From assembly GCA_046292385.1 (NCBI GenBank), contig JBKBRF010000004.1, forward strand, positions 111,654 to 175,653: a stretch of 64,000 bases of DNA. The letters run 5' to 3'. How positions within the stretch are numbered: the first letter of the stretch is position 1; the number at the start of each line of letters is the position of its first letter. Shown here one piece after another: positions 4,053 to 39,444 of this stretch. This stretch comes from Armatimonadota bacterium (lineage in GTDB: Bacteria > Armatimonadota > SYMT01). The notes below the pieces were generated by a model that had not been told where the DNA came from, did no database searches, and was given only the letters and a program-made list of their open reading frames with translations. A program made the position numbers and the translations under genes.

Positions 4053-5495
<1,443 letters not shown>

Positions 5496-6435: not shown

Positions 6436-7953
<1,518 letters not shown>

Positions 7954-8114
7954 TTCTATGTCTCCGGTCAGTTCGTTTCAATCAGCACCGGCAAGTGCCG
8001 GAGGCGCAAGCCGGGAGCCAGAGCGGGCCCGGTCCAGATCACCGCTGCCGGGGAGCGCGAGCCCCGGCCGGTAAATACGCGGCGCCAGCGTGCGGCGCCC
8101 AGACAGACTTAACG

Positions 8115-8663: not shown

Positions 8664-8719
8664 GGGGAAAACTTAATGTGTCAGCGTGTCCGCGGTGAGC
8701 GGACCGGCCGCGCGCGGGA

Positions 8720-9208
8720 TCAAGCCCGCGCGCCGACCTCGTTGATGAAATCGCCGATCAGCTCACGATGCACGGCGGGGTTGATCTCCCGCTCCAGCAC
8801 CTTGGATGCCGCCAGCACCGCGAGGTCCGCCATTTCGGAGCGGATCTCCACGATCGCCTTCTTGCGCTCCTGCTCGATGTCGGCCAGGGCGCGGTCGCGC
8901 TGAACGGCTGCCTCTTCCTTCGCCTTACCCACGATCGCCGCGGCCTCTTCCTGGGCCTGGCGCACCGCTCCAGCGATATGCTCCCGCGCTTCCGCCTCGA
9001 TGTTGGCGAGCCGCTGCTCGTAGTCGGCGCGGGTCTGCTCCATCGCGCGGCGGTCCGCCGCGACCTGGTCCAGAGTGCTCTCGATCTCTCGCTGGCGGGT
9101 CTCGATCACCGACCCGATCGGGCCAAAGGCGAACTTGCCGAGGATGAGAACGAGAAGGATGAAAGCGATTGCCTGGGTGAGGACGGCAATCGGATTGATG
9201 TCGAGCAT
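8720..9208 (-). CDS. atpF: Fo ATP synthase b subunit
   Basis: 162 aa. Single N-terminal transmembrane helix followed by a long charged coiled-coil (EIESTLDQVAADRRAMEQTRADYEQRLANIEAEAREH...). Confidence 0.85.
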   Translation of the reverse strand: MLDINPIAVLTQAIAFILLVLILGKFAFGPIGSVIETRQREIESTLDQVAADRRAMEQTRADYEQRLANIEAEAREHIAGAVRQAQEEAAAIVGKAKEEAAVQRDRALADIEQERKKAIVEIRSEMADLAVLAASKVLEREINPAVHRELIGDFINEVGARA

Positions 9209-9276
9209 GGCGCCCTATCTCCGGGGTGGCCGGGGGAGGCGAGAGCCGCCTCCCCCGTTGCGATTAACGCGCCGAC

Positions 9277-9555
9277 TTACTGGCCCGGCTGGATCAGCGG
9301 CAGGATCTGGTCCGGGCGGGGCAGGCCGATCACGAAGAGGATGATGAGCGCCACGAGCAGCGCGTAGATCGCCAGCGACTCGATGAGCGCCAGGGCGATA
9401 ATCATCACCATCTGGATGCGGCCGGCCGCTTCCGGCTGGCGGGCAATCCCTTCGAGGGCGGCGGCGCCGACGCGGCCCTGGGCCAGCGCGGACGAGATCA
9501 CCGCGATCGGAACGCACAGGCCGGCGGCCAGCGCAAGCATAGCAAGGTAAAGCAT
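9277..9555 (-). CDS. atpE: Fo ATP synthase c subunit (proteolipid)
   Basis: Two transmembrane helices with the conserved carboxylate in helix 2 ([16 protein letters not shown]). The ORF carries an unusual ~17-aa C-terminal tail ([16 protein letters not shown]) beyond helix 2. Confidence 0.85.
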
Positions 9556-9601
9556 CGTTCGTTCTCCTCGTTTAGAGTAAGGTCACAAAAGGACGCCGAG
9601 A

Positions 9602-11071
9602 TCAGACCGCGGGCGCCGGCGCGGCGTGGTCGGACACATGTCCATGGTCGTCGCCATGGTGCGCGTGCTCGCCGTGATGCTCGTCGTGGTCTCCGTGCGC
9701 CGTCATCAGCGCGATGTAGACGGAGGCCAGGATGCTGAACACCAGGGCCTGCACGGTGCAGGTAAAGAGTGCCAGGAAGTACATCGGGAGCTGGAACGGG
9801 ACCAGTCCCTGCGTGAAGTGGGCCGCGAGATACATCAGGATCACGAGGACCACGTCTTCGCCGAAGATGTTTCCGAAGAGACGGATCGTGAGGGACAGGA
9901 TCTTCGCCAGCTCTCCCACGATATGGATCGGCACGTTGAGCGGCCCCAGCCACCAGGGATCGCCGACGAAGTGCATGAAGTAGCCCTTCACGCCGTTCAC
10001 CCGGATCCCTTCGATGTGGCTGTAGACCACCACCACCACCGCCAGTCCGGCGGTGACATTGATGTTGGAGGTCGGACTCATCCAGCCGGGGATCAGCCCC
10101 GCCAGGTTCATCACCCAGATGTAGATGAACCCGGTTCCGATCAGCGGCACGTACTTCTTGTAGTTCTCGCCGATCAGGCCGTGAACGAAGCCGTCAAACC
10201 CGCTGTAGATCATCTCCAGGACCGTCTGCTTGCGATCCGGGATCCGGCGCAGGTTCCGCGTGAGCAGCACCGCCACCAGGAAGATCGTAAGCGCCGTCAG
10301 GAGCGAGATCACCAGCCCTTCCGGGAACATGCTCTCGAAGGCGAAGCTGACGGTGGGGTTGAGGAGCACCACCGGCCGGCCGTCGATCGTCAGCTCCTCC
10401 GTGGTAACGCCCACCGCGGAGGTCCGGTTCCCGACTTCGCCGATGGTGGGGTTCACCGCCACGCGCGGGGCCGGCTTGATATTGACGTGGTGCGGGCTGT
10501 ACGTGTAGGGGACCGTCTTCCCTTTGAGCTCCGTCGCCGGGATCGGCTGACCGGTTGCGGCGTCGAGGGCGCCGTCCGCCTTCAGCGTTGCCGGACCGCT
10601 CCACCAGAACCACTGCAGCACGCGGTAGAGCCAGGTCGGGTTGTGGATGCTGACCTGCTTGTCGTGCTCCTCCCCATGCTCGCCGCCGTGCGCGTCCCCG
10701 TGCTCGCCGCCACCGGCTTCACCGTGGCCGTCGGTCGCGGTACCGTGGCCCGGCTCGCTGGGGGTCTGCTCGCCGACCGCATGCTCGCCGCCCTGGGGGC
10801 CGTGCGAGCCGCCGGGGCCCGGTTCCTGCGCGCCGAGGTGCGTCTCCTCCGCGCGGGAGGCCTCCGGCGTGCGCTGGTTCGGGAGCGCGGTGCTGCCGTG
10901 CGCGTCGTTGGCCGGCGGAGGGGGCGGGGGCGCCGACTCGTGCTGCGCGCCGACCGGCAGGAGCGTCCAGGCGCACAGGGCCAGCGCGGAGGCGGTCAAC
11001 AGGATCCGTCGCGCAGGTTTAACTGCCCGCTTTCCGGTTCTATATTGGTTCTGGTTTCCGAAGAGCTTCAT
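9602..11071 (-). CDS. atpB: Fo ATP synthase a subunit with a ~240-aa N-terminal extension and His-rich segments
   Basis: The C-terminal ~250 aa is a canonical a-subunit (LSLTIRLFGNIFGEDVV, five transmembrane helices). The N-terminal part has a signal/anchor-like segment (ILLTASALALCAWTLLPVGAQ), a poly-Pro stretch, and an acidic His/Gly/Glu-rich low-complexity region (GHGTATDGHGEAGGGEHGDAHGGEHGEEHD). The C-terminal tail is HGDHDEHHGEHAHHGDDHGHVSDH. I set the start at the internal MKLFGN Met (11071), because the longer ORF (to 11167) overlaps atpI. Confidence 0.75.
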   Translation of the reverse strand: MKLFGNQNQYRTGKRAVKPARRILLTASALALCAWTLLPVGAQHESAPPPPPPANDAHGSTALPNQRTPEASRAEETHLGAQEPGPGGSHGPQGGEHAVGEQTPSEPGHGTATDGHGEAGGGEHGDAHGGEHGEEHDKQVSIHNPTWLYRVLQWFWWSGPATLKADGALDAATGQPIPATELKGKTVPYTYSPHHVNIKPAPRVAVNPTIGEVGNRTSAVGVTTEELTIDGRPVVLLNPTVSFAFESMFPEGLVISLLTALTIFLVAVLLTRNLRRIPDRKQTVLEMIYSGFDGFVHGLIGENYKKYVPLIGTGFIYIWVMNLAGLIPGWMSPTSNINVTAGLAVVVVVYSHIEGIRVNGVKGYFMHFVGDPWWLGPLNVPIHIVGELAKILSLTIRLFGNIFGEDVVLVILMYLAAHFTQGLVPFQLPMYFLALFTCTVQALVFSILASVYIALMTAHGDHDEHHGEHAHHGDDHGHVSDHAAPAPAV

Positions 11072-11117
11072 CGGTTGGTTGCCGGTCTTCCAGGGGGCTC
11101 GTACCCCGCCAGTTATA

Positions 11118-11567
11118 TCACCGGTAGCGCTCGCTGATCCTGTCCTGATGGGCCATGGCGGTGGCAATCACCATCACCAGCATGGTGCCGTGGACCACCA
11201 GCGTTCCGACCACCAGCGCAAAGATGTTCAGGAGGCCACGATCCGCGCTCCAGGCGACCAGCCCCAGCGCTGCGAGGATGAACGGCAGCTTCAACATCCC
11301 GGCCAGCGCCAGCTTCAAGCCGGCACCGCGGCCGCCGTTGAACAACAGCTTTACCGTTGCCTCGCACGTCCAGAGGCTGAACAGCCCGATCGCGGCGCCG
11401 GCGAGCAGTCCCACGGCCACGGTCTTCTGCTCGAAGCCGAGGAACATGAGGGCCGCTACCACGCTGATCTGTGTCGCTCTCCAGTACACCTTGCCTACGA
11501 ACCTCCGATCGAGACCCTGCTTCCAGAAGTCCCAATCTTGCGTATCCTGCGGAATGCCCGCCTCCAT
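11118..11567 (-). CDS. atpI: ATP synthase protein I
   Basis: 149-aa hydrophobic four-helix protein, immediately upstream of atpB and in the conserved operon position. Confidence 0.7.
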   Translation of the reverse strand: MEAGIPQDTQDWDFWKQGLDRRFVGKVYWRATQISVVAALMFLGFEQKTVAVGLLAGAAIGLFSLWTCEATVKLLFNGGRGAGLKLALAGMLKLPFILAALGLVAWSADRGLLNIFALVVGTLVVHGTMLVMVIATAMAHQDRISERYR

Positions 11568-13970: not shown

Positions 13971-14618
13971 CTACGCAGCGCTCTCCTGCAGCTGCGCCCA
14001 GGAGACTTCTCCGCGGGCGGTTTCCAGGTCGAGCTCGGAATCGGGGCCGAGACGCGCTTCCAGCTCATCGATGCCGGCGGCGCAGATCGCTTCATACCAG
14101 CCGTCGAAGTGGCGGCGCGCGGCGGCGACCAGCGCCGACGCATACTCGGACGCGTCGGTGACGCGGAGGCTGCTGCCTTCGGACTGGAGACGGCGGAGCT
14201 CCTCCAGCACCTCGTCCGCGCTCCACCGGCGGTGGCGGCGGATCTCTTCGTAGTCGAGGCCGGCCGCTTCGATGGTGCGCTGCCAGCTCCCGAAGCGGTT
14301 CGACCGCACGGCGGCGGCGGCGAGCGCCGGGTCGAGCTCGGTGGAGACGTGCCGCCAGGAGAGGTCCTCCCCGGCTGCGTGGTACTCCCGCAGCTTGTTC
14401 AGGATTCGGTCGCGGGTCCAGACCTTGTAGAGGCGGATCTCCTCGTAGTCGAGCCCGGCATACTCCACCGCCGCTCGCCACGAGCCGAAGTGCCGGGTCG
14501 CGGCGCGCAGGAGGCGGAGGTTCCGCTTCTGCATCTCTCCATAACTGAGCGGCTCCTGCGCGGCGTGGCTGCGCAGGATCTCGACGGCGATCTCTTCCTT
14601 CGACCAGCGGGCGACCAT
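13971..14618 (-). CDS. Protein made of three tandem homing-endonuclease-associated (HEAR / HNH_repeat-like) repeats
   Basis: Three ~60-aa repeats of the pattern W-S-K/R-E-E-I...R-H-F-G-S-W...A-G-L-D-Y-E-E-I-R. Examples: WSKEEIAVEILRS...RHFGSWRAAVEYAGLDYEEIRL; WTRDRILNKLREY...NRFGSWQRTIEAAGLDYEEIRR; WSADEVLEELRRL...RHFDGWYEAICAAGIDELE. Confidence 0.5.
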   Translation of the reverse strand: MVARWSKEEIAVEILRSHAAQEPLSYGEMQKRNLRLLRAATRHFGSWRAAVEYAGLDYEEIRLYKVWTRDRILNKLREYHAAGEDLSWRHVSTELDPALAAAAVRSNRFGSWQRTIEAAGLDYEEIRRHRRWSADEVLEELRRLQSEGSSLRVTDASEYASALVAAARRHFDGWYEAICAAGIDELEARLGPDSELDLETARGEVSWAQLQESAA

Positions 14619-16763: not shown

Positions 16764-17232
16764 GACGGCGCGCCGGGAGAGGGCAGTATCCGGGCCTGCT
16801 GTCAACCGATTCGGCGTGGCAGATTGGGGCGCTGCGAGAGGCACCCATTGCCACGAAATCGGGGTCGCGACCGAGGAGGCGTTTCGGTTACCTTAACGGA
16901 AGCTGAAGCTGTCCCGGGACCGGAGCGGCGGATGATTGCCCGCCGCCGAGAGGGTCTTCTGGACCACCGGGCGAACAGGCTTTCGCGTTGTGGGCGGGTC
17001 GGGCGGATGATATACTCTCCGCACCGGTTCTTCTGCTCTTCGACCGGGGTGAGGCCGGTGCTCTCCGCCTTGAGCGCCGCACCCCTGGCCCCTCGGAGCG
17101 ACCTCGCCGCAACCCGCGACGCGTCACTGACCGGTTCGCCCGACCCACACTTCTGCGCGGCGCAGCCCGCGGCGGTTTTTGCGTCTGGCTCACCAGAACC
17201 GAAACCTTTCTAACGGTCTAAAAGCGTCGACG

Positions 17233-18648
17233 ATGCGCCACCAGCTCCGCCTGGAAATCGAGGAAACCGGACCGCTCCACGAGCTGTGGTCGGAGGTGCT
17301 GCAGGCTGCGGAGACGCGGCTGGGCCGGGAGTCGGTGGAGAGCTGGCTTAAGGACACGGGGCCCGTCTCCCTGGAAGAAGGGGTGCTGACGATCGGCGCT
17401 CCGAACAGCACCGCGCGCACCTGGATCGAGAAGAAGTACGCCGGGGTCCTCGCCGAGGTGCTGGAGCAGGTCCACGGCGAGTCCGCCCGGATCGCGGTGG
17501 TAGTCCGCTCCCGCAAGAAGGGGGCCGAGCCGTCGCAGGCCGCCGCCGCTCCCAAGGCCGCTCCCGCGCCGCCGGCGCAGCCCGCGCGCCCCGTGCCGTC
17601 GCCGCTCTTCGCGCCGCTGCCGCTGAACGAGAAATACACCTTCGAGAACTACGTGGTGGGGCAGTCGAACCGCTTCGCCCACGCGGCGGCCGCGGCGGTG
17701 GCGGACCGGCCCGGGCGCGAGTTCAACCCCCTCTTCATCTACGGCGGGGTCGGCCTCGGCAAGACCCACCTGCTCCAGGCGATCGGCCACGGCCTGCGCG
17801 CGAAGAACCCGCGCGCCCGGGTCGCCTACGTCTCCGGCGAGACGTTTACCAGCCACTTCATCACCAGCCTGCGTGAGCACCGGGAAGAGGAGTTCCGACG
17901 GGCCTACCGGGGGGTCGACATCTGGTTGGTGGACGATATCCAGTTCATCGCGGACAAGACCAGCACCAAGGAAGAGTTCTTCCACACCTTCAACGAGCTC
18001 TACCTGACGAACCGGCAGATCGTGCTCGCGTCCGACCGCCCCCCGCGCGAGCTGCGGCTGATGGAAGACCGCCTCCGGACCCGCCTGGAATCGGGTCTGC
18101 TGGTGGAGATCGCGGCGCCCGAGCTGGAGACCCGCATGGCGATCCTGCAGAAACGGGCGGAGCTGGAAGGGGCGGACGTGCCGCCGGAGCTGGTCTACCA
18201 GATCGCGCGGACCGTCACCACGAACGTCCGCGTGCTGGAGGCGGCGCTCATCCGCATGCTCGCGCTCGCCTCCCTCAACAACTGCGGCCTCACCCCGGAG
18301 CTCGCCGGCCGGGCCCTGGCGGCCTTCGTGCAGGAGAGCCAGATCGCCGCCGTCAGCCTCCTCGCCATCCAGCGAGCCGTCTCCGAGCAGTTCAAGGTGC
18401 CGGAGCAGGAGCTGACCGGACCCCGGCGCGACCGCCACACCAGCCTGGCGCGGCAGGTGGCGATGTACCTGATGCGCGAGCTGACCCGCAAGTCGCTCTC
18501 CGAGATCGGAGAAGCGTTCGGCGGGAAGTCGCATTCTACCGTGCTCTACTCCTGCTCCAAGCTGGAGAAGGAGATGCAGCAGGACCCCTCGCTGCAGACC
18601 CTGGTCCGCGCCCTCCGCACCCGCATCGCCGGCCACGCCGGGGAGTGA
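17233..18648 (+). CDS. dnaA: Chromosomal replication initiator protein DnaA
   Basis: Domain I (LWSEVLQAAETRLGRESVESWL), AAA+ Walker A NPLFIYGGVGLGKTHLLQAIGH, and the domain IV DNA-binding region (SLSEIGEAFGGKSHSTVLYSCSKLEKEM). Start set at the internal MRHQ Met. Confidence 0.95.
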   Translation: MRHQLRLEIEETGPLHELWSEVLQAAETRLGRESVESWLKDTGPVSLEEGVLTIGAPNSTARTWIEKKYAGVLAEVLEQVHGESARIAVVVRSRKKGAEPSQAAAAPKAAPAPPAQPARPVPSPLFAPLPLNEKYTFENYVVGQSNRFAHAAAAAVADRPGREFNPLFIYGGVGLGKTHLLQAIGHGLRAKNPRARVAYVSGETFTSHFITSLREHREEEFRRAYRGVDIWLVDDIQFIADKTSTKEEFFHTFNELYLTNRQIVLASDRPPRELRLMEDRLRTRLESGLLVEIAAPELETRMAILQKRAELEGADVPPELVYQIARTVTTNVRVLEAALIRMLALASLNNCGLTPELAGRALAAFVQESQIAAVSLLAIQRAVSEQFKVPEQELTGPRRDRHTSLARQVAMYLMRELTRKSLSEIGEAFGGKSHSTVLYSCSKLEKEMQQDPSLQTLVRALRTRIAGHAGE

Positions 18649-23627: not shown

Positions 23628-24611
23628 TCACTCGGCGCGCAGCACCTCCGGGTTGACGCAGTTCGGCGGTCGCTCGCCCTTGAGCACCGCCAGGATGTTG
23701 CGGACCGCCATCCGCGTCATGGCGGCGCGGGTGGGGCCGCTGGCGCTGCCGAGGTGGGGGAGCACGAAGATCCCGGGCGTGTGCAGGATCGGGTCGTCCG
23801 GTCGAGAGGGAGGCTCCGGATCGGTCACGTCGAGGCCGGCGCCCGCGATCGTGCCGCTCGTGATCGCTTCCAGCAGCGCCGCCTGGTCCACCAGTCCGCC
23901 GCGTCCGGTGTTGACCAGGATGGCGGTCCGCTTCATCTGCCGCAGGCGCTCCGCGTTGATCAGGTGGCGCGTCTCCGGCGTCATCGCGCAGTGGAGGCTG
24001 ACGAAGTCGCTCTCCGCCAGGAGCCGGTCCAGGGAGCTGTACTCGCAGCCGAGGGAGAACTCCAGCTCCGGCTTGCGAGTGCGGGAATGGTAGAGCACCC
24101 GCATCCCGAATCCCTGTGCCCGCCGCGCGACCGCCGCGCCGATCCGGCCCATGCCGACGATCCCGAGGGTCGCCCCGCTCACTTCCTGGCCCCACAGGAG
24201 CCCCTGCGCCCACTGCCAGCGATCTTCCCGCGCGGCGACAAGCCCCTCGCCGAAGCGGCGGGCGGCGGCGATGATCAGCCCGAAGGCGAGGTCCGCGGTG
24301 GCGTTCACCACCACGTCCGGCGTGTTCGTCACGATGACGCCGCGCGCGGTCGCGGCGGGAACCTCGATGTTGTCGTAGCCGACTCCGAAGTTCGCTACCA
24401 CCTTCAGTGAGGCGCCGGCGGCGTCGAGCACCGCGGCGGAGACGCCCGCGCCGCTGACGGGAAGCAGGGCGGCGACTCCTTCGGCGTGGGTAAGCATCTC
24501 TCCCAGGGAAGGCTTCTCGGGAGCCGGGCGGACCGTCACCTCCGCCAGCTCACGGAGTGGAGCGAGCTCCGCGTCGGCCACGGGGCCGGTTACGAAGACG
24601 CGCGGCTTCAT
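23628..24611 (-). CDS. D-isomer-specific 2-hydroxyacid dehydrogenase (glyoxylate/hydroxypyruvate reductase-like)
   Basis: NAD-binding GIVGMGRIGAAVARRAQGFGMRV plus the catalytic Arg/Glu/His arrangement of the D-2-hydroxyacid dehydrogenase family. Confidence 0.85.
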   Translation of the reverse strand: MKPRVFVTGPVADAELAPLRELAEVTVRPAPEKPSLGEMLTHAEGVAALLPVSGAGVSAAVLDAAGASLKVVANFGVGYDNIEVPAATARGVIVTNTPDVVVNATADLAFGLIIAAARRFGEGLVAAREDRWQWAQGLLWGQEVSGATLGIVGMGRIGAAVARRAQGFGMRVLYHSRTRKPELEFSLGCEYSSLDRLLAESDFVSLHCAMTPETRHLINAERLRQMKRTAILVNTGRGGLVDQAALLEAITSGTIAGAGLDVTDPEPPSRPDDPILHTPGIFVLPHLGSASGPTRAAMTRMAVRNILAVLKGERPPNCVNPEVLRAE

Positions 24612-24654: not shown

Positions 24655-25152
24655 TCAGTAGGTCCAGTCCTTGTGCTGGGCGTAGGCGAGGATTCCGAGC
24701 AGGCACTCCGCGCTCGGACGCCCGCGCGGGCCGCTCAGGATCCAGTAGCAGGAGAGGTTTCCCTGGCTGTCGATCAGGAAGACGGCGGGCGCCATGTAGT
24801 AGTGGTACGAGTCCGGGAGCTGGTGGTGCGGCTCGTAGATGCCGAGCATCTCCCCGACCGCGCCGTCGTCGTCGATCAGAATCCGGGGCCGGATCTTGAA
24901 TTGCTCCCGGAAGATCCGGTGCTCCTCTCGGCCGCCGCGCAGCAGAAAGACCAGCTCCGTGTTGTTCCACTTGAAGATGTGCTGGAACGTGTCCCAGAGG
25001 GCGAACTCGCCCCGGGTGGTCGGTCAGAACTCGCCGCGGCAGGCGTGGATGATCACCATCTTGCCGCGGTAGTCGCTCAGGCGCCACTCTTCGCCGTCGG
25101 TATCCTTCAGGACGATATCGGGGACCGGCTCCCCATTCTTAAGCGAGGACAT
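24655..25152 (-). CDS. Bcp/PrxQ-type peroxiredoxin with in-frame UGA (candidate selenocysteine) at the peroxidatic position
   Basis: ATG ~25152 with a GGAGAG Shine-Dalgarno gives MSSLKNGEPVPDIVLKDTDGEEWRLSDYRGKMVIIHACRGEF, then TGA at 25024-25026. The same frame continues PTTRGEFALWDTFQHIFKWNNTELVFLLRGGREEHRIFREQFKIRPRILIDDDGAVGEMLGIYEP...APAVFLIDSQGNLSCYWILSGPRG...WTY to the stop at 24655; the 64-aa track ORF is the tail of this frame. The same-frame relationship is confirmed by the two overlapping track ORFs 24608-25087 and 24655-24849. It aligns along its length with E. coli Bcp ([44 protein letters not shown]), with the TGA at the peroxidatic Cys. Confidence 0.6.
24993..25016 (-). promoter_or_regulatory. 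bSECIS-like stem-loop immediately 3' of the in-frame UGA
   Basis: On the mRNA: UGA-ccgacca-CCC-g-GGGCG-AGUU-CGCCC-ucu-GGG. This is a 5-bp GC upper stem with an AGUU apical loop (containing the G-U dinucleotide), beginning ~12 nt after the UGA, with a 3-bp lower stem. Spacing and shape resemble bacterial SECIS elements. Confidence 0.4.
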
Positions 25153-25185
25153 AGGACTCTCCGCGCGCGGCCGACCCGCGCGCCG

Positions 25186-25374
25186 TCAGGCAGATTCGGA
25201 GGGCTGCTCCGGGAGCGGGCGCAGGGCCAGGTAGCAGCTGGTGCACTTGAGGTGCTGGCGCGCGCCGCTGCCGGCAATCTCCAGCGTGCCGCAGCATTCG
25301 GGGCAGAAGTCCCGCTCCGTCAGCTCGAGCCGCACCAGCTCTCCGCGGACGATCGTCTCGGTAACGATTCTCAT
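25186..25374 (-). CDS. Small zinc-ribbon protein (four Cys)
   Basis: 62 aa with CPECCG...CTSC. Sits between mogA and the peroxiredoxin gene. Confidence 0.4.
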   Translation of the reverse strand: MRIVTETIVRGELVRLELTERDFCPECCGTLEIAGSGARQHLKCTSCYLALRPLPEQPSESA

Positions 25375-25381: not shown

Positions 25382-25900
25382 CTACCGGTGCAGCTCCCAG
25401 ACCAGGTGCTCCAGCTCCGGGATGATCAGGCGGTCCATCGCCAGCTTCACCGCGTTGGAGCTTCCCGGCATGCTGAAGAAGACGCGCCTGCGGTAGACGC
25501 CGGCGGTGGCGCGGCTGAGCATGGCGGCGGCGCCGATCTCCTGGTACGAGAGCATCCGGAACAGCTCCCCGAAACCGGACAGCTCCTTCTCCAGGCGCTT
25601 GGCCAGGGCGTCGTAGGTGGTGTCGCGGGTAGCGATGCCGGTGCCGCCGTTCAGCAGCACCGCCTGCGCCTCGCCCGCGTCCAGCTCGTGGTCGATCAGC
25701 GCCAGGATCCGCTCCGGCTCGTCTTTCACGATCTGGTAGAAGACGACGCGGTGCCCCGCGGCCTCCAGGCGCTCGCGGATCAGTTGGCCGCTGGTGTCGG
25801 TCTCCGGCGTGCGGGTGTCGCTGACGGTGAGCACGGCGCAAGCCACCGGGCCTCGCTCCGCGGCGGCGGCCCGGTGCTGTTGGGTCGATTCACTCGGCAT
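25382..25900 (-). CDS. mogA: Molybdenum cofactor biosynthesis protein MogA/MoaB (molybdopterin adenylyltransferase)
   Basis: LTVSDTRT, the [12 protein letters not shown] motif and an overall MoaB/MogA fold over 172 aa. Confidence 0.8.
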
Positions 25901-32768: not shown

Positions 32769-35153
32769 TTATAGAAGACCCTTCCGCTTGCGCAGGATCC
32801 ATTCGCCGACCAGCAGCGTCACGAACAGGATCAGCGGCAGCGGCGCGTCCCACAGCTCATGCTCCACCCGGCTCCGCACCTCCTGGCTGCGGTCCGGCAG
32901 TAGCTCCGGCAAGCTCTTCGCCTCGCTCCAGAGGAGGTACTTGCCGCCGGAGACGGAGGCGAGCCGCTTCAGCAGCTCCACGTTCTGCTGCGGCTCCTCC
33001 AGCTCGAGGCTCGCCGACTCCACCACCACGTTCGTGAGCGACTCGGCCTTCCGGACTCCCGGCGCCTTCAGCGACGCCTTGTACGAGCCCGGACGCGAGG
33101 CGATCCACTCGCCGGAATAGACGCCCGCCGCGCCGGGGACCGGCTCCAGCTTCACGGGGAAGCGCTGGCCATCTTCGCGGGTGAGGTCGGCGTCGACCGA
33201 GTTCACCCGCACCGGGTGGAAGTTCGGCGTCAGCAGCCGCGCGCGGAGCACCACCCGCTCTCCCAGCGTGTAGGTGGTGCGGTCCGCGGTGAGCCGGACG
33301 TACCGGTTGTCCCCCGGCAGCTCGTGCGGCGTGAGCGAGCGGATCACCTGCCCCCAGAACCGGTAGAAGTACTTGTCCCCGGTCCGGTGGCGCCACTGCC
33401 AGGTGCTGTCGACCATCGTCATGAACGAGGTGCCTTCGCCCACCTGCTGGAGCGCCATCAGCGGGATCTTGCCGTCGGTCCCGGTGATGCCGGGATGCCG
33501 TGCCAGCACCGTGGCGCCCGGCTTGGCCCGGTCGGTGATCCCGCACCAGTACATTCCCGGCAGGTCGTTCCAGACCGTGCGGTTCTGCTCCCGGTCCGGC
33601 ACCAGCAGCATCATCGGGTGTCCGGCGCCCGCGTCGCTCAGCTCGAGCTGGAACGGCTCGCGGAAGATCTGCTCCCGATGCGCGAGCGGCACAACGATCG
33701 GCCACACCGCTTCCAGGTCGGTCTGGCGGTACTGCCACGGCAGGAAGTTCTCGCCCGCCATCGTGATCAGGCTGCCGCCGCGCTCTTCCACGAACGCGCG
33801 CACGTTCTTCAGGTCCGCCGCCGTGAAATAGTCGCGCGGCACGTCGCCGAGCACCAGGATATCGAACTCGAAGAGCGCCTTCTTCGTCCGCGGGAATCCG
33901 AAGATCGGGACGTTCCCCTCGCCACCGCGGGACGGGTCCGGATCGTCGGCTAGCATGCAGGAGAACTGGGTGGTGGTGTCCCGCATGATCGCGTTCTTGA
34001 GGAAGCGATACTCCCAACGGGGATAGCCCTCCACGTAGAGGATCTTCAGCTTCTTGTCGACGATTCGGATCGGCCACGACTTCCGGTTATTGGAGAGCGT
34101 CACCTCGCCCGTCTGTCCCGGCACCGAGACGCTAAGCGTGCGAGCGCCGACCATATCCGGGGTGAACGAGAGGGTCAGCTCCTGCTTGCCGCCCGCGCCC
34201 CGGAGCGGCACGTTGATCCGCTGCAGCACCCGGTTTCCGATTGCGAGGGTGAGTGGGACCGTCCGGCCGGCGAAGCCGCGCTGGCGGAGGCTGACGGAGA
34301 CCACCACCTCGTCGCCCTTCCGCACCACCTCGTCCGCCAGCAGGCTGGTGACGGCGACGTCGCGCGGCGGGGTGGGGTCGCCGAAGCCGACCGTGTAGAT
34401 CGGGGCGCGCAGCTCCGCGGAGCGCCGTGCGGCGAGGGCAGGGTCCTCGCCCATGTTCTGCCCGCCGTCGCTGAGCAGCACCACTCCCGCCAGCGGCTGG
34501 CCGGCGGTGTCCTGCAGCACGAAGTCGATCGCGTCCCCAATGCGGGTTTGCTCGTCCTCCGGCTTACCCACCGCCAGCGGGATCCGCTCTCCGGCCGCCC
34601 CGGGCTCCTTCGGGTCGCCCTTGGCGTCCTTCAGCTCGGTGCCGGTCGCCTCCGTGCCGAAGCGGTAGAGCCGGACGGAGTGCTTCGCGACCAGCTCCTT
34701 CAGCAGCGTGGCGTCCCCCTGGTTCAGGAGCCGCCCCAGCGTCTCCATCCGGGTCGCCTCCGCCATCTTCGGATCGCCGAGCGCCTGGATCAGGTCGGCC
34801 TTGCGCTTTGCGTCCTGCCACCGGTCCTTCAGCCCCATGCTGCTCGACTCGTCGACCAGCACGGCGACCACCGACCGGTTCACCTGCGTCCGGTGACTCC
34901 GCAGCATCGGCTGCCAGATCAGCAGCGCCAGGATCACCATGGCGGCGATCCGCATCACCGAGAGCGGCCCCTTCCAGAGCCACGACGGCCGCCGCCCGTC
35001 TCGCGCGTAAAAGACGACCACCCACGCGAGCAGCCCCAGCCCCGCCGCCACGGCGACCCAGACCGGCCAGGGCTGGACGAAGAACAGGCGGTCCCACCGC
35101 AGCATGTCCTGCCCGGGCTCAATCCCCAGTAATCGGTAGATCCAGTCGCTCAT
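32769..35153 (-). CDS. Membrane-anchored von Willebrand factor A (vWA) domain protein with a large extracytoplasmic C-terminal region
   Basis: Two N-terminal transmembrane helices. vWA MIDAS start VAVLVDESSSMG. 794 aa. Confidence 0.6.
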   Translation of the reverse strand: MSDWIYRLLGIEPGQDMLRWDRLFFVQPWPVWVAVAAGLGLLAWVVVFYARDGRRPSWLWKGPLSVMRIAAMVILALLIWQPMLRSHRTQVNRSVVAVLVDESSSMGLKDRWQDAKRKADLIQALGDPKMAEATRMETLGRLLNQGDATLLKELVAKHSVRLYRFGTEATGTELKDAKGDPKEPGAAGERIPLAVGKPEDEQTRIGDAIDFVLQDTAGQPLAGVVLLSDGGQNMGEDPALAARRSAELRAPIYTVGFGDPTPPRDVAVTSLLADEVVRKGDEVVVSVSLRQRGFAGRTVPLTLAIGNRVLQRINVPLRGAGGKQELTLSFTPDMVGARTLSVSVPGQTGEVTLSNNRKSWPIRIVDKKLKILYVEGYPRWEYRFLKNAIMRDTTTQFSCMLADDPDPSRGGEGNVPIFGFPRTKKALFEFDILVLGDVPRDYFTAADLKNVRAFVEERGGSLITMAGENFLPWQYRQTDLEAVWPIVVPLAHREQIFREPFQLELSDAGAGHPMMLLVPDREQNRTVWNDLPGMYWCGITDRAKPGATVLARHPGITGTDGKIPLMALQQVGEGTSFMTMVDSTWQWRHRTGDKYFYRFWGQVIRSLTPHELPGDNRYVRLTADRTTYTLGERVVLRARLLTPNFHPVRVNSVDADLTREDGQRFPVKLEPVPGAAGVYSGEWIASRPGSYKASLKAPGVRKAESLTNVVVESASLELEEPQQNVELLKRLASVSGGKYLLWSEAKSLPELLPDRSQEVRSRVEHELWDAPLPLILFVTLLVGEWILRKRKGLL

Positions 35154-35316: not shown

Positions 35317-37470
35317 CTACGATCTTCTCCCGAACGCCTGGGCCAGCATCGTCTCGATCGCCATCAGGGCGAGCGCGGCGATCAGCAGGTGACGCCACAG
35401 CTCGATCCCCTGGCGGCTCCGCGTCAGCTCCGTGAGAAGGTTGTCGTTCAGGCTGATCCAGGTCAGCTCTCGCACCGGCAGCAGCTTCCGGACCGCGGCT
35501 TCATCGAGGCCGCGGAGGTCGGCTTCCGCCGGATCCCGGTTTACCGCAAAGAGGTCTTCGCTGCCGCCGGCGGAGGCCAGCCGGTAGAATCCCGCCGCCT
35601 TCGTGGAGGGCACCGTCACCACGGCGCCGCGCTCGTCGACCACCGGCTTCAGCGTCGTCTTCTGTCCTTTCGGACTGATCGCGGTGACGCGCTCTCCTGC
35701 TTCGGAGAGCGGCAGCGGCTTCACCAGCGGCTCCCCCAGCCGTCCGTTGCGGGTGCCGTCCGCGCTGCTCGCCAGGTAGGCGATGAGCTGATGCACCATC
35801 GGCAGGAACGCGGGCCGCAGCGGGAGCGTGTTCCACTCCGTGTTCGCCGTGCTCGCCACCAGGATCACGCGCCCCAGCCCGAACTCCTTCTCCACGATTG
35901 CCGGCGCGCCGTTGCTGAAGCGGGCCATCACCTGGACCGACTTGTCGCCTTCCTTCGGAGTGAGCCGGAAATAGCGGGAGAAGTCGGCGGTATTCAGGTC
36001 GACGTCCTGCGCGCCGCGGAACCGCTGCAGGGCGGGGTGCTCCACGCTGGCGGGGTCGAGGAACGCCTTCTCGGTCCCAACGCCGGAGAGGCGGGCCGGC
36101 AGCAGGCTCGGCTGCGCCTCGTAGAGGTCCCGATTGTAAAGGCTGGCGTTCACCCGGCTGCCGAGGAAGATCACCGCGCCGCCGCCGTTCTGTACGAACT
36201 CCGCCAGCAGGCGGCGGTCGCCCTCGCCGAGGGTCGCCACGTCGGAGAGCGCCACCACGTCGTAGCCGCGCACGTTCTCGCCGCCGAAGGTGCTGCCGGT
36301 GATCACCCGCGGCTCCAGCGGCGTCGCCTCCTGGCCGGGGGAGGTGAGCGGCGGTGCGAGCGCGAGCTGCAGGAAGAAAGCGCCGTCCTTCTGGGGCGTC
36401 TGCGGGTTGGGCCGACCGTTCAGCACCAGCACCTTCACGTTCTGCCGCACCGGGAGCGCCAGGTAGCCGCGGTCGTCCGCCGGGAGGCGGTCTTCCGAGA
36501 TCCGGACCGTACAGGCCCGCACGCCCGGACGGTCGAAGATCTGGTTGAAGGTGACGAGGGTGCCCTGGCCCGGCTCCACGTCGATCCGCTGCGTCGATCC
36601 CTGCGCCTGGCCGTCGACCTCCAGCGTCACCAGCAGCCCGCGGGCCGCCTGGGTGCCGCGGTTGATGACGCGGGCCTGGATCCGCGCGGAGGAGCGGGCG
36701 GTCGCCAGCCCCCGCGCCGCCTGGACCCACTCCACGGCCAGGTTCGAGGCGCGCGGCTCGCGCGCCGGCAGCATCACGAGGCGCGCGGCCTTCGCCAGCG
36801 ACTCCCACGCGGCGGGGTCGCGTCCCTTGCCGTCGAAGCCGAGCGCCTGGTTATCGCTGATCAGGAAGACCTCGCGATTGACGAAGCGCGACTCGTTCAG
36901 CACCTCGACCGCCAGGCGCGCCGCGCCGCCGAAGTTGGTGCCGGCGTCGGAAAGCGCCACGCCCTTCCGCAGCACCTCCGTGACCGTGTTCAGGTCGAGG
37001 CTGGGCTGGCGGATCAGCGCCCGGGGCGGCTCTGAGGCGAGGATGACGCTGACGCCGTCGCCCTGCCGGAGCCCCCGCTGCACCAGGTCGAGCGCCCGGT
37101 CGCGGGCGCGGTCGAAGACCGTCTCGGCGCGCCCTACCGACGGGCGGTAGCCCATGCTGTAGGAGTTGTCCAGGATGATGACCGCGTGGACCTGCCCCCG
37201 CTGGCTCGCTACCGGGACCCCGCCCATCCGCACGATGGGGCGGCAGAGAGCGAGCACGACCAGCGCGATGATGAGGCAGCGGATCAGGAGGAGCAGGAGT
37301 TGCTCGATCATCAGGCGCCGGCTGCGGTTCCGCTGGCTCTGGCGCAGGAACTCCATCGCCCCCCACCGCACCACGCGGAAGCGCTTCCGCTGGAGCAGGT
37401 GGATGATGATCGGAATGCTGACCAGCGCGAGCGCGCCGAGCAGACCGCTGTTGATGAAAGAGAGTCCCAT
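35317..37470 (-). CDS. BatA-like protein: aerotolerance-regulator N-terminal domain plus vWA domain
   Basis: BatA_N-type start MGLSFINSGLLGALALVSIPIIIHLLQRKRF, a second transmembrane helix, then vWA MIDAS VIILDNSYSMG. 717 aa. Confidence 0.7.
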   Translation of the reverse strand: MGLSFINSGLLGALALVSIPIIIHLLQRKRFRVVRWGAMEFLRQSQRNRSRRLMIEQLLLLLIRCLIIALVVLALCRPIVRMGGVPVASQRGQVHAVIILDNSYSMGYRPSVGRAETVFDRARDRALDLVQRGLRQGDGVSVILASEPPRALIRQPSLDLNTVTEVLRKGVALSDAGTNFGGAARLAVEVLNESRFVNREVFLISDNQALGFDGKGRDPAAWESLAKAARLVMLPAREPRASNLAVEWVQAARGLATARSSARIQARVINRGTQAARGLLVTLEVDGQAQGSTQRIDVEPGQGTLVTFNQIFDRPGVRACTVRISEDRLPADDRGYLALPVRQNVKVLVLNGRPNPQTPQKDGAFFLQLALAPPLTSPGQEATPLEPRVITGSTFGGENVRGYDVVALSDVATLGEGDRRLLAEFVQNGGGAVIFLGSRVNASLYNRDLYEAQPSLLPARLSGVGTEKAFLDPASVEHPALQRFRGAQDVDLNTADFSRYFRLTPKEGDKSVQVMARFSNGAPAIVEKEFGLGRVILVASTANTEWNTLPLRPAFLPMVHQLIAYLASSADGTRNGRLGEPLVKPLPLSEAGERVTAISPKGQKTTLKPVVDERGAVVTVPSTKAAGFYRLASAGGSEDLFAVNRDPAEADLRGLDEAAVRKLLPVRELTWISLNDNLLTELTRSRQGIELWRHLLIAALALMAIETMLAQAFGRRS

Positions 37471-37484
37471 GCCCGAAAAACTGC

Positions 37485-38387
37485 TCAGGTGCGGCGCATG
37501 CGCCCGGCGAGATAGCGCGAGAGCCCGTCCGCCGGGTTTTCAGAGGTCAAAAGCCGCACCACGTCTACCTGGATCTCCCGGCAGCCGCGCTCCAGCTCGG
37601 TACAGAACTCCTGGAACTGGCGGAGGTACTCCTCGCGGATGCCGCGCGGGTCTACCAGCAGCTCCGGCTCCAGCTCCAACCCCTCGAACTTGGTCAGCTC
37701 GTCGAACGGGAACTCCACCTCGTCATCGTCCAGCACGTGAAAGACGATCACTTCGTGCTTGCGGTAGCGGAAGTGCCGGAGTCCCTCCAGCACGTCGCGC
37801 ACGTCGCCGAACAGATCTGAGAAGACGACGACCAGTCCTCGCCGCTTCAACTGCTCCGCGATCTGGTGGAAGGTGGGGGCGAGCTCCGTCTTGGGACGCG
37901 ACTCGGCAGTCGCCAGCGCCTCCAGCATCTGGGTAAAGTGGCTGCCGGTCGCCTTGGGTGGGATCGTGGTCCGCACCCCTTCGTCGAAGAGCACCAGGCC
38001 CGCGGCATCCCGCTGCTGCATCAGCAGCGACGAGAACGCGGCGGCGGCGACGGAGGCGTACTCCAGCTTGTCGAGCTTGCGGTTCTTCCCGCGGTAGCGC
38101 ATCGACTCGCTGGTGTCGACCATCAGCACCGCCTTCAGGTTCGTCTCTTCCTCGTACTCCTTCACGTAGTAGCGGTCGGAGCGCGCCAGGACCCGCCAGT
38201 CGATGTACCGGATCTCGTCTCCGGGCGTGTACTCGCGGTGCTGGGCAAACTCCACGCTGAAGCCGTGGTAGGGGCTCTTGTGGAGACCCGAGATGACGCC
38301 CTCCACCACCTCGCGCGCGTGGAACTCGAGGCGCGAGACGGCGCCCAGGACTTTCGGATCACCGAGTTGCTGCTGGGTGAGGGGCAT
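37485..38387 (-). CDS. DUF58-family protein (MoxR-associated vWA-like)
   Basis: GFSVEFAQHREYTPGDEIRYIDWRVLARSDRYYVKEYEEE...VLMVDTSESM is typical of DUF58 partners of MoxR ATPases. Confidence 0.75.
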   Translation of the reverse strand: MPLTQQQLGDPKVLGAVSRLEFHAREVVEGVISGLHKSPYHGFSVEFAQHREYTPGDEIRYIDWRVLARSDRYYVKEYEEETNLKAVLMVDTSESMRYRGKNRKLDKLEYASVAAAAFSSLLMQQRDAAGLVLFDEGVRTTIPPKATGSHFTQMLEALATAESRPKTELAPTFHQIAEQLKRRGLVVVFSDLFGDVRDVLEGLRHFRYRKHEVIVFHVLDDDEVEFPFDELTKFEGLELEPELLVDPRGIREEYLRQFQEFCTELERGCREIQVDVVRLLTSENPADGLSRYLAGRMRRT

Positions 38388-38391
38388 CGGT

Positions 38392-39444
<1,053 letters not shown>

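What the first reader, a model, noticed from the sequence alone, without database searches (positions are those of the whole stretch)
24655..25152. Candidate selenocysteine-containing Bcp/PrxQ peroxiredoxin: in-frame UGA at the peroxidatic Cys plus a SECIS-like hairpin
What the sequence shows:
- A minus-strand gene starts with a good RBS (GGAGAG-N4-ATG, ~25152) and encodes MSSLKNGEPVPDIVLKDTDGEEWRLSDYRGKMVIIHACRGEF.
- It then hits TGA at 25024-25026 and continues in the SAME frame for 122 more codons with clear Bcp-family similarity (…ELVFLLRGGREEHRIFREQFKIRPRILIDDD…APAVFLIDSQGNLSCYW…) to the stop at 24655.
- I verified the frame relationship against the two overlapping track ORFs that cover this stretch.
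- Aligned to E. coli Bcp (…[17 protein letters not shown]…), the UGA sits exactly where the peroxidatic cysteine (T-P-x-C) belongs.
- About 12 nt after the UGA there is a GC stem with an AGUU loop, reminiscent of bacterial SECIS elements.

Prx/Bcp-like selenoproteins are an established selenoprotein class. This locus would be missed by standard gene callers, or annotated as two fragments or a pseudogene.
Basis: partly seen in the sequence, partly recalled or inferred. Interest (0 to 1): 0.75.

Follow-up and report, generated by a model that had tools for sequence, protein, structure and literature searches.

The report
Selenocysteine-coding peroxiredoxin-like gene in Armatimonadota
An apparently broken antioxidant-type gene is almost certainly intact, because its internal stop codon and the small RNA hairpin after it are conserved across many related soil bacteria, which is the signature of selenocysteine insertion. 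The protein is a peroxiredoxin-shaped enzyme with a differently placed active site, not the ordinary Bcp/PrxQ enzyme first proposed.

Summary
A minus-strand gene (25152..24655) has a good RBS and an in-frame TGA at 25026..25024. It continues for 122 conserved codons and ends at another TGA.

- **Sec/Cys pairing.** Across 34 distinct homologous loci, mostly Armatimonadota/Abditibacteriaceae MAGs, 21 carry TGA at this column and 13 carry TGC/TGT.
- **Hairpin conservation.** In 20 of the 21 TGA forms the 15 nt GGGGCGAGTTCGCCC is identical. It forms a hairpin (G·U plus 5 G-C pairs, AGUU loop, 16 nt after UGA). The 21st form has a compensatory G-C to A-U change.
- **Synonymous sites.** Among the 15 TGA genes analysed by codon, third-position differences are 0.00 in these five codons and about 0.55 elsewhere.
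- **Cys forms.** They encode the same residues with other codons and have no stable hairpin.
- **Public gene calls.** They split or truncate the TGA genes.

This is a genuine recoded UGA with a bacterial SECIS, so very probably a selenoprotein.

The family assignment is wrong in detail. The Sec aligns with the Thr of the Prx TxxC motif, which is the N-terminal Cys position of CxxC. The Prx Pro, peroxidatic Cys and Arg are replaced by Arg, Thr and Pro. No NCBIfam model reaches its cut-off. It is a Prx-scaffold protein with a UxxT centre.

Sec machinery could not be tested in this 64-kb window.

The parts
24655..25152 (-). Complete coding sequence of the Prx-like (AhpC/TSA-fold) selenoprotein candidate: 165 sense codons including Sec-UGA at codon 43, plus the terminal TGA.
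   Evidence: Translation. Pfam AhpC-TSA 1e-16. Full-length Cys homologs at 54-64% identity. A coding-type substitution pattern (pos3>pos1>pos2) on both sides of the TGA in 15 TGA-bearing genes.
25157..25162 (-). Shine-Dalgarno-like GGAGAG, 4 nt upstream of the ATG at 25152.
   Evidence: Read directly from the sequence.
25024..25026 (-). In-frame UGA (codon 43), the proposed selenocysteine codon, in the motif RGEF-U-PTT.
   Evidence: The same column is TGA in 21 distinct loci and TGC/TGT in 13. It is Cys in all 29 full-length database homologs.
24998..25013 (-). Core SECIS-like hairpin GGGGCG-AGUU-CGCCCU: 6 bp including a closing G.U, a 4-nt loop with G at position 2, and 16 nt between the UGA and the loop.
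   Evidence: RNAalifold consensus of -10.6 kcal/mol, invariant in 15/15. The five codons CGG GGC GAG TTC GCC are the only frozen ones among 49 conserved degenerate columns. The exact 15-mer is in 20/21 TGA forms and 0/13 Cys forms, Fisher p=1.5e-8. L026 has a compensatory G-C to A-U change. The hairpin meets the four bSECIS criteria quoted in PMC13188914.
24993..25016 (-). Possible lower helix extension in this window: CCC (25016..25014) pairs with GGG (24995..24993) across a CU bulge.
   Evidence: RNAfold MFE. The lower helix differs between homologs and is not independently supported.
24655..24657 (-). Terminating TGA of the same gene, which shows that TGA is an ordinary stop in this genome.
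   Evidence: 10 of the 14 other TGA-form genes also end in TGA.
25186..25374 (-). Upstream neighbour: a conserved 62-aa Cys-rich (CPEC...CTSC) small ORF, 33 nt upstream of the Prx-like start. Context only; a functional link is not shown.
   Evidence: Translation. Conserved next to the gene in L002, L018 and L020. No Pfam hit.
23628..24611 (-). Downstream neighbour: a D-isomer-specific 2-hydroxyacid dehydrogenase, starting 43 nt after the Prx-like stop. Probably the same transcription unit (inferred).
   Evidence: Pfam 2-Hacid_dh_C 1e-62. Synteny with L002, L018 and L023.
25382..25900 (-). Upstream neighbour: a MogA-type molybdopterin-binding protein, part of the syntenic block GFO-MogA-small ORF-Prx-like-2HADH.
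   Evidence: Pfam MoCF_biosynth 1e-32. Synteny.

Best explanation
The gene is intact and encodes a 165-residue cytoplasmic thioredoxin-fold oxidoreductase built on a peroxiredoxin (AhpC/TSA) scaffold. Codon 43 (UGA) is recoded as selenocysteine.

**Recoding (inferred from the established bacterial mechanism).** The hairpin GGGGCG-AGUU-CGCCCU lies 11-26 nt downstream of the UGA, inside the coding sequence. It would be bound by SelB carrying GTP and Sec-tRNA(Sec), which delivers Sec to the ribosome when the UGA is in the A site.

**Active site.**
- The Sec is the N-cap residue of the first long helix, in the motif R-G-E-[FY]-U-[PH]-T-T-R-G-E. This is the position of the nucleophilic N-terminal Cys of CxxC proteins and of the Sec in GPx (UxxT). 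It is not the Prx peroxidatic position.
- No second Cys is universally conserved.

**Most likely chemistry (inferred, not shown).** A 1-Sec cycle: the selenolate attacks a peroxide or an oxidised sulfur substrate, forming a selenenic acid or selenenylsulfide. This is resolved by an external thiol, or by the frequent but non-essential Cys38 or Cys135.

**Evolution.** Sec and Cys forms interconvert within the family, and the hairpin decays once UGA becomes UGY.
For: 1. **Sec/Cys pair.** 21 distinct loci have TGA and 13 have TGC/TGT at one column. All 29 full-length database homologs have Cys there.
2. **Both sides of the TGA are translated in one frame.** Pairwise differences by codon position are 0.32/0.23/0.53 upstream and 0.27/0.20/0.57 downstream. 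The first possible start after the TGA is 58 codons downstream.
3. **The hairpin is selected as RNA.**
   - Of 49 fully conserved degenerate amino-acid columns in the 15 TGA genes analysed by codon, only 5 use a single codon. These are the consecutive codons +4..+8 that form the hairpin.
   - Third-position difference there is 0.00, against 0.36 in Cys forms.
   - The same peptide RGEF at -4..-1 is not frozen.
4. **Association with UGA.**
   - The exact 15-mer is in 20/21 TGA forms and 0/13 Cys forms.
   - CGG at +4 shows the same split (p=1.5e-8).
   - Hairpin dG is -7.7 or lower in all Sec forms and -6.5 or higher in all Cys forms.
5. **One compensatory change.** G-C becomes A-U in L026.
6. 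**All four published bSECIS criteria are met**.
7. **TGA is a real stop.** This gene and 10 of 14 homologs end in TGA.
8. **U and C forms are interleaved** in an NJ tree.
9. **Not an assembly error.** An independent Logan assembly is 100% identical over 2,522 bp, including the TGA.
11. **Lineage plausibility.** The window is from an Armatimonadota MAG. Armatimonadota MAGs with canonical tRNA-Sec and Sec-type hydrogenases are reported in PMC13582414.
Against: - No selA, selB, selD or tRNA-Sec is in the 64-kb window. No tRNA gene is in L001-L024 (about 330 kb of related loci). The rest of the genome could not be reached, so the machinery is unverified for this organism.
- The hairpin is minimal and almost invariant, so support from covariation rests on a single compensatory change.
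- The Fisher and Mann-Whitney tests are not corrected for phylogeny.
- In a single sequence, such a hairpin follows 14.5% of UGA triplets.
- Sec is not distinguished from SECIS-dependent Cys insertion.
- The biochemical activity is entirely inferred.
Confidence: 0.8

Rival explanations
1. The same UGA and hairpin are used, but the residue inserted is cysteine. This could be always, or when selenium is scarce. A SelC-like tRNA(ReC), charged with Cys, would be delivered by SelB.
For: PMC13582414 reports tRNA(ReC)-like genes, in addition to canonical SelC, in 5/5 Armatimonadota genomes carrying UXXU-type hydrogenases. It cites evidence that such tRNAs decode UGA as Cys in the presence of a SECIS. 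The Cys forms of this family are evidently functional.
Against: No such tRNA was seen in the window or in L001-L024. Maintaining a costly UGA and hairpin in 21 lineages, when a single-base change gives Cys, argues that something other than Cys is being inserted. Those reported genomes also carry canonical SelC.
Confidence: 0.08
2. One reading: an ordinary Bcp/PrxQ peroxiredoxin whose peroxidatic Cys (the C of TxxC) has been replaced by Sec, as in PrxU-type TxxU selenoproteins.
Against: - HMMER and hhalign alignments put U on the Thr of TxxC. The Cp column is Thr, the PxxxT Pro column is Arg, and the catalytic Arg column is Pro/Ser.
- In the model the residue precedes the helix rather than lying in its first turn.
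- NCBIfam scores are PrxQ 29.5 against 260, Bcp 26.9 against 140, and PrxU 28.4 against 270.
Confidence: 0.04
3. The gene is a pseudogene, a nonsense allele, or a sequencing or assembly error. Only fragments are made, or nothing.
For: Gene callers report only fragments. One homolog, L009, carries a second in-frame TGA.
Against: The TGA recurs at the same column in 21 distinct assemblies spanning about 60-90% protein identity. Purifying selection acts on both sides, and the adjacent hairpin is frozen. A second assembly has identical sequence.
Confidence: 0.01
4. UGA is read without Sec. This could be near-cognate readthrough (for example Trp), local code reassignment, or termination followed by re-initiation giving two polypeptides.
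For: None specific. It cannot be excluded without protein data.
Against: - TGA terminates this gene and most homologs.
- The column pairs only with Cys.
- There is no start codon for 58 codons after the TGA.
- The Cys homologs are single polypeptides.
- The conserved hairpin has the geometry of a bSECIS.
Confidence: 0.02

Closest known systems
Prx-like thiol:disulfide oxidoreductase selenoproteins (PF00578; UxxC/UxxU; 'Prx-like 1-3' of the Sargasso/GOS surveys)
   Same: AhpC/TSA-superfamily scaffold. Sec sits at the N-terminal position of the CxxC-equivalent motif rather than at the Prx peroxidatic position. Cys-containing homologs exist, and the bSECIS lies inside the ORF.
   Different: The +3 position is Thr (Thr or Pro in Cys forms), never Cys or Sec, so no intramolecular selenenylsulfide within the motif is possible. 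The family has its own signature (RGE[FY]U[PH]TTRGE ... SGPRGRP). It matches no curated NCBIfam model.
Sec-containing peroxiredoxin (PrxU, TxxU; Eubacterium acidaminophilum type)
   Same: Same Pfam family (PF00578) and overall fold. Sec replaces a redox Cys. A peroxide-detoxifying role is plausible.
   Different: Sec is three residues upstream, on the Thr column. The Prx Pro, Cp and Arg are absent. The NCBIfam PrxU score is 28 against a cut-off of 270.
Peroxiredoxin-like family protein, cd02970, UxxS selenoprotein (Olavius symbiont; listed in PMC13188914)
   Same: A Prx-like scaffold with a single Sec followed at +3 by a hydroxyl residue (UxxS against UxxT).
BCP/PrxQ and AhpE peroxiredoxins (solved structures 5id2, 5epf, 3drn, 3hjp, 2ywn)
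   Different: About 21-25% identity. The active-site residues are not conserved, and the nucleophile is moved by one helical turn.
Glutathione peroxidase (UxxT)
   Same: The same redox motif type, U-x-x-T, at the N-terminus of the first helix of a thioredoxin fold. A 1-Sec peroxidase cycle is the best mechanistic analogy.
ResA/TlpA/CcmG thiol-disulfide oxidoreductases
   Same: The best NCBIfam and PDB sequence hits include ResA. Sec aligns with the first Cys of CxxC. Foldseek scores tie with BCP.
   Different: There is no second Cys. No N-terminal membrane anchor or signal is evident from reading the sequence. The score is 33 bits against a cut-off of 170.

Membership tests
Bacterial selenoprotein gene (Sec-UGA + bSECIS) | In-frame UGA with protein-coding conservation on both sides | tested here: met
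   The pos3>pos1>pos2 pattern holds upstream and downstream in 15 genes. There is no start codon for 58 codons after the UGA.
Bacterial selenoprotein gene (Sec-UGA + bSECIS) | Homologs with Cys aligned to the UGA column | tested here: met
   13 distinct loci with TGC/TGT. 29/29 full-length database homologs have Cys there.
Bacterial selenoprotein gene (Sec-UGA + bSECIS) | Stem-loop meeting the bSECIS consensus: loop 3-9 nt, stem 4-16 bp, G in the first two loop positions, 16-37 nt from UGA to loop, dG <= -7.5 | tested here: met
   4-nt loop AGUU, 6 bp, 16 nt, -10.6 kcal/mol. The criteria are as quoted from PMC13188914. About 14.5% of random UGAs here also pass.
Bacterial selenoprotein gene (Sec-UGA + bSECIS) | Hairpin conserved beyond what the protein requires, and linked to the presence of UGA | tested here: met
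   five frozen codons; the exact 15-mer in 20/21 TGA forms and 0/13 Cys forms; one compensatory change.
Bacterial selenoprotein gene (Sec-UGA + bSECIS) | selA, selB, selC (tRNA-Sec) and selD present in the same genome | not testable with these tools
   None is in the 64-kb window, and no tRNA gene is in L001-L024. The rest of the 309-kb contig and the MAG could not be fetched. There is only lineage-level literature support.
Bacterial selenoprotein gene (Sec-UGA + bSECIS) | Selenium actually incorporated at the UGA position | not testable with these tools
   Needs 75Se labelling or mass spectrometry.
Peroxiredoxin (incl. BCP/PrxQ) | AhpC/TSA thioredoxin-like fold | tested here: met
Peroxiredoxin (incl. 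BCP/PrxQ) | PxxxTxxC active-site motif with the redox residue at the C position (first helical turn) | tested here: not met
   Pro becomes Arg, Thr becomes U/C, and Cp becomes Thr. Residue 43 is the helix N-cap in the model.
Peroxiredoxin (incl. BCP/PrxQ) | Conserved catalytic Arg (..R..F.ID strand) | tested here: not met
   The aligned column is Pro or Ser (APAV/ASSV).
Peroxiredoxin (incl. BCP/PrxQ) | Score above the curated cut-off of a PrxQ/Bcp/PrxU equivalog model | tested here: not met
   NCBIfam scores against cut-offs: 29.5/260, 26.9/140, 28.4/270.
Prx-like thiol:disulfide oxidoreductase selenoproteins (UxxC/UxxU) | Sec at the N-terminal position of the CxxC-equivalent on a PF00578 scaffold | tested here: met
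   U aligns with the first Cys of ResA's CxxC and with the Thr of the Prx TxxC.
Prx-like thiol:disulfide oxidoreductase selenoproteins (UxxC/UxxU) | Second redox residue (Cys/Sec) at +3 | tested here: not met
   +3 is Thr in all 21 Sec forms. It is Thr or Pro in Cys forms.
Prx-like family protein cd02970 (UxxS selenoprotein) | Match to the cd02970 (PRX_like2) model | not tested
ResA/TlpA/CcmG | CxxC motif, and a score above the ResA subfamily cut-off | tested here: not met
   The motif is UxxT. The NCBIfam ResA score is 32.8 against a cut-off of 170.

The most novel reading that the evidence does not exclude
The deeply conserved UGA and 15-nt hairpin in this Armatimonadota family may not be a plain Sec site. 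It could be a dual-use recoding site, read by SelB with either Sec-tRNA(Sec) or Cys-tRNA(ReC) according to selenium supply. tRNA(ReC) has been reported in Armatimonadota genomes. That would make this abundant, easily assayed small enzyme a natural model for SECIS-dependent cysteine insertion.

A milder reading is more probable, at about 0.5. The family would be a selenoprotein family absent from current catalogues, with a GPx-like UxxT centre on a Prx scaffold that has lost every Prx catalytic residue.
Probability: 0.1. Interest if true: 0.75.

Novelty: new member of a known kind. Interest (0 to 1): 0.5.

Why it matters
**Annotation.** In every public record examined, the Sec forms of this family are mis-annotated. 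Of the 120 best protein clusters, 91 are C-terminal fragments and none carries U. A correct call restores a full-length redox enzyme in many soil and groundwater Armatimonadota/Abditibacteriaceae genomes. It also marks these lineages as Sec users.

**A natural experiment on the bacterial SECIS.** The locus offers an unusually clean comparison. One family has 21 Sec forms with a nearly invariant minimal hairpin (6 bp plus an AGUU loop, at the shortest allowed distance from the UGA). It also has 13 Cys forms in which the hairpin has decayed, interleaved with the Sec forms in the tree. This is directly usable to define the SelB-binding determinants of this phylum and to seed searches for its other selenoproteins.

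**Enzymology.** A peroxiredoxin scaffold can carry its nucleophile at the CxxC/GPx position while lacking the Prx Pro, Thr, Cp and Arg residues.

None of this overturns current understanding. Prx-like selenoproteins with Sec/Cys pairs are a well-known class.

Tried and rejected
**Searches that found nothing**
- tRNA-Sec and Rfam: ARAGORN found no tRNA in the window or in L001-L024. Rfam gathering gave no hit over the window. A permissive scan of 24900-25100 gave only noise, E>2.
- Sel genes: Pfam annotation of about 47 window ORFs showed no SelA, SelB or SelD domains.
- Other selenoprotein genes: a scan for in-frame TGA flanked by coding-type GC3 signal found only this site in the window. Nothing convincing turned up in about 450 kb of related loci.

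**Steps that failed for technical reasons**
- Reaching the rest of the source genome: exact-protein look-ups failed for 5 of 6 window proteins, including the 100%-identical AtpD record. Only a 2.5-kb Logan contig was found.
A 63%-identical Cys homolog (P0001) was modelled instead.
- No supplementary tables were held for the Armatimonadota Sec paper.

**Evidence that proved uninformative**
- Covariation: RNAalifold found none because the stem is invariant. Only L026 gives one compensatory pair.
- Single-sequence folding significance (z=-1.0) was rejected as evidence either way.

**Explanations considered and rejected**
- Code reassignment: TGA also terminates these genes.
- Pseudogene or assembly error: the TGA recurs and the flanks are under selection.
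- Canonical Bcp/PrxQ: the active-site columns do not match.
Full report
**1. The observation**

On the minus strand, an ATG at 25152 is preceded by GGAGAG (25162..25157) and a 4-nt spacer. The frame reads MSSLKNGEPVPDIVLKDTDGEEWRLSDYRGKMVIIHACRGEF and then TGA at 25026..25024. It stays open in the same frame for 122 codons, up to a TGA at 24657..24655. The mechanical ORF list shows only a 42-aa ORF (25024..25152) and a 64-aa ORF (24655..24849) in this frame. The first possible start after the TGA is therefore 58 codons downstream.

With Cys in place of the stop, the 165-residue product matches Pfam AhpC-TSA (E=1e-16) and Redoxin (1.5e-11).

On its own the hairpin is not significant. The 76-nt region folds no better than shuffles (z=-1.0). 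In addition, 14.5% of all 1,284 UGA triplets in this 69%-GC window are followed by a hairpin that satisfies the published bSECIS criteria.

**2. Comparative evidence that the UGA is decoded**

*Database homologs.* A protein search returned two populations.
- 29 full-length homologs (165-169 aa, 53-64% identical). All have Cys at the stop column, in the motif RGE[YF]-C-P-T-[TP].
- 91 closer relatives (up to 92% identical), all C-terminal fragments of 96-124 aa. They begin at an internal Met such as MNTELVF, MHIINGM or MTTRGEF. None contains U.

*DNA of related loci.* I fetched species-representative genomes (L001-L024) and metagenomes (L025-L054). After removing three duplicates, 34 distinct loci remained, including the window. 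Of these, 21 have TGA and 13 have TGC/TGT at exactly this column.

*Coding signature.* Among the 15 TGA genes analysed by codon, pairwise differences by codon position are 0.32/0.23/0.53 upstream of the TGA and 0.27/0.20/0.57 downstream. This is a coding signature in one and the same frame on both sides.

*TGA is a normal stop.* The window gene and 10 of 14 TGA-form homologs also terminate in TGA. The neighbouring small ORF does too. TGA is therefore not reassigned in these genomes.

*Independent assembly.* A Logan assembly of run SRR31360857 is 100% identical to the window over 2,522 bp, including the TGA. Its gene calls are exactly the 42-aa and 64-aa fragments.

Pseudogene, sequencing error and code reassignment are therefore excluded for practical purposes.

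**3. The hairpin is selected as RNA, and only with UGA**

- *Frozen codons.* In the 15 TGA genes, codons +4..+8 (Arg-Gly-Glu-Phe-Ala) are always CGG GGC GAG TTC GCC. Of 49 amino-acid columns that are fully conserved and degenerate, only these five consecutive columns use a single codon. Third-position pairwise difference is 0.00 there, against 0.53-0.57 elsewhere.
- *Internal control.* The same peptide RGEF occurs at -4..-1 and is not frozen (CGC/CGG, GAG/GAA, TTC/TTT).
- *Cys forms.* They encode the same residues with CGC or AGG, GAA, TTT and so on.
- *Association across all 34 loci (tests not phylogenetically corrected).*

| Measure | TGA forms | Cys forms | Test |
|---|---|---|---|
| Exact GGGGCGAGTTCGCCC | 20/21 | 0/13 | Fisher p=1.5e-8 |
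| Local hairpin energy | -7.7 to -11.8 kcal/mol | -0.6 to -6.5 kcal/mol | complete separation, Mann-Whitney p=9e-7 |

- *Compensatory change.* The one deviant TGA form (L026, U-M-T-T) has AGGCG-AGUU-CGCCU, a compensatory G-C to A-U change.
- *Consensus structure.* RNAalifold gives 6 pairs at -10.6 kcal/mol, with no covariation because the stem is invariant.
- *bSECIS criteria.* The hairpin meets all four criteria of the bacterial SECIS model as quoted in PMC13188914. The loop is 4 nt (allowed 3-9). The stem is 6 bp (allowed 4-16). G is at loop position 2 and is followed by U. Sixteen nt lie between the UGA and the loop, which is the lower limit of 16-37. The free energy is below -7.5.
- *Tree.* In an NJ tree the U and C forms are interleaved. 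For example, L011(C) is sister to L015/L037(U), and L033(C) is sister to L003/L009(U). Given the single shared hairpin sequence, the simplest history is one origin of Sec followed by several Sec-to-Cys conversions, after which the hairpin decays. This is inferred.

**4. What the protein is**

*Active site.* It is not the Prx one.
- The family's C/U-P-T-T aligns with T-x-x-C. The Sec is on the Prx Thr, and the Prx peroxidatic Cys column is Thr.
- The Pro of PxxxT is an invariant Arg.
- The catalytic Arg column is Pro or Ser.
- Against ResA, the Sec aligns with the first Cys of CxxC.

*Curated models.* No NCBIfam model reaches its cut-off: ResA 33/170, PrxQ 29.5/260, Bcp 27/140, PrxU 28/270.

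*Second cysteine.* No second Cys is universally conserved.
- Cys at -5 is present in 13/15 Sec forms but in only 13/29 full-length Cys forms.
- The SC[FY]W Cys135 is at least 90% conserved but absent from several members, including one Sec form.

*Conclusion.* The protein is a cytoplasmic Prx-scaffold oxidoreductase with a single redox residue in a UxxT/CxxT(P) motif at the CxxC-N-terminal, GPx-like position. No N-terminal hydrophobic segment is evident from reading the sequence. The family signature also includes RGE[FY]U[PH]TTRGE and SGPRGRP.

**5. Mechanism**

*Shown:* a recoded UGA paired with Cys homologs, and a UGA-dependent conserved hairpin with bSECIS geometry.

*Inferred from the established bacterial pathway:* SelB with GTP and Sec-tRNA(Sec) binds the hairpin and inserts Sec at codon 43.

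*Inferred by analogy to GPx and 1-Cys thioredoxin-fold enzymes:* the selenolate at the helix N-terminus attacks a peroxide or an oxidised sulfur substrate. The resulting selenenic acid or selenenylsulfide is resolved by an external thiol, or by Cys38/Cys135 where present.

*Context:* the gene lies in a same-strand block of GFO/IDH oxidoreductase, MogA, a 62-aa CPEC...CTSC small ORF, the Prx-like gene and a 2-hydroxyacid dehydrogenase, with short gaps between them. The block is shared with L002, L018 and L020/L023 but not with the Abditibacteriaceae members. It gives no firm functional clue.

**6. What could not be tested**

- The window lies near oriC. It contains dnaA, the ATP synthase operon, sucCD and mdh.
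- It holds no tRNA, no Rfam hit, and no SelA, SelB or SelD domain among about 47 annotated ORFs.
- L001-L024 hold no tRNA gene. The scan of about 450 kb of all held loci found no other convincing UGA gene.
- AtpD is 100% identical to a protein of an NCBI 'MAG: Armatimonadota bacterium' on a 309-kb contig, but that contig could not be retrieved.
- Literature gives lineage-level plausibility only. Armatimonadota MAGs with Sec-type group 4 hydrogenases carry canonical SelC. Strikingly, 5/5 also carry tRNA(ReC)-like genes, which can decode UGA as Cys with a SECIS (PMC13582414). That is the main live rival, at about 0.08.

**7. Comparison with what is known, and novelty**

The catalogues I could read are the Sargasso survey PMC1088965, the GOS survey PMC2398784 and the 2026 review PMC13188914. 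The BSepDB paper adds nothing specific. These sources list the following for this superfamily:
- Prx (TxxU)
- Prx-like 1-3 (UxxC/UxxU)
- a UGC form
- a cd02970 'peroxiredoxin-like family protein' (UxxS)

A UxxT form on an AhpC/TSA scaffold is not listed, and Armatimonadota are not mentioned. No public protein of this family carries U. I could not query BSepDB or CDD, so prior cataloguing cannot be excluded.

It is best filed as a new member of a known kind: another thioredoxin-fold, Prx-like Sec/Cys selenoprotein family. The active-site motif, the very compact and conserved SECIS, and the phylum are its distinguishing points.

**8. Verdict**

| Reading | Confidence |
|---|---|
| Genuine recoded UGA with a functional SECIS, residue inserted Sec or Cys | about 0.9 |
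| Sec specifically | about 0.8 |
| Cys via tRNA(ReC) | about 0.08 |
| Canonical Bcp/PrxQ with Sec at the peroxidatic Cys | about 0.04 |
| Pseudogene or assembly error | about 0.01 |

Interest is moderate at 0.5. The finding is well supported, useful for annotation, for SECIS and SelB work and for the Armatimonadota selenoproteome, but conceptually expected.

Noticed in passing
L009 ~9143-9145 (JACQGJ010000226.1, Armatimonadetes NC_groundwater_1070): This TGA-form homolog has a second in-frame TGA ten codons after the Sec codon, at the otherwise invariant Trp column (FAL*DTF; TGG to TGA). It lies in the 3' flank of the hairpin. It could be a recent pseudogenisation, an assembly error or a second recoding event.
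   Followed up: no
window 25186-25374 (-): A conserved 62-aa Cys-rich ORF (CPEC...CTSC, zinc-ribbon-like) lies directly upstream of the Prx-like gene. It is 51-61% identical and in the same position in L002, L018 and L020, and has no Pfam hit. Its TGA stop is in the same reading frame as the Prx-like gene.
   Followed up: partly
L026 3001-3495 (JGI10216J12902_100417081): A Sec form with Met after the Sec (U-M-T-T), so the gene caller starts at MTTRGEF. Its hairpin is a variant, AGGCG-AGUU-CGCCU. This is the only compensatory (G-C to A-U) change seen.
   Followed up: yes
window 17179-18648 (+) and 3529-11167 (-): dnaA and a complete F1Fo ATP synthase operon, followed by sucC, sucD and mdh. The window lies at or near the chromosomal origin region of an Armatimonadota MAG.
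   Followed up: partly
L001, L002, L020/L023 (record titles): The loci closest to the window (72-88% identity; L002 and L020/L023 share the GFO-MogA-small ORF-Prx-2HADH synteny) are titled 'Actinomycetes/Actinomycetota bacterium' in NCBI. The window's AtpD is identical to an 'Armatimonadota bacterium' protein, and its best named relatives are Armatimonadota. The bins are probably mislabelled.
   Followed up: no
window 32769-35153, 35317-39444, 45044-53582 (-): A BatA/VWA-DUF58-MoxR (AAA_3) aerotolerance-type cluster, followed by several very large ORFs (1288, 803 and 656 aa) with unusually high GC (0.71-0.74), strong negative AT skew and almost no Pfam matches.
   Followed up: no
window 13971-14618 (-): A 215-aa ORF matches the 'homing endonuclease associated repeat' (HNH_repeat, 1.9e-17). 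It lies between the aspartate-kinase-like gene and the dnaA region and may be a mobile-element remnant.
   Followed up: no
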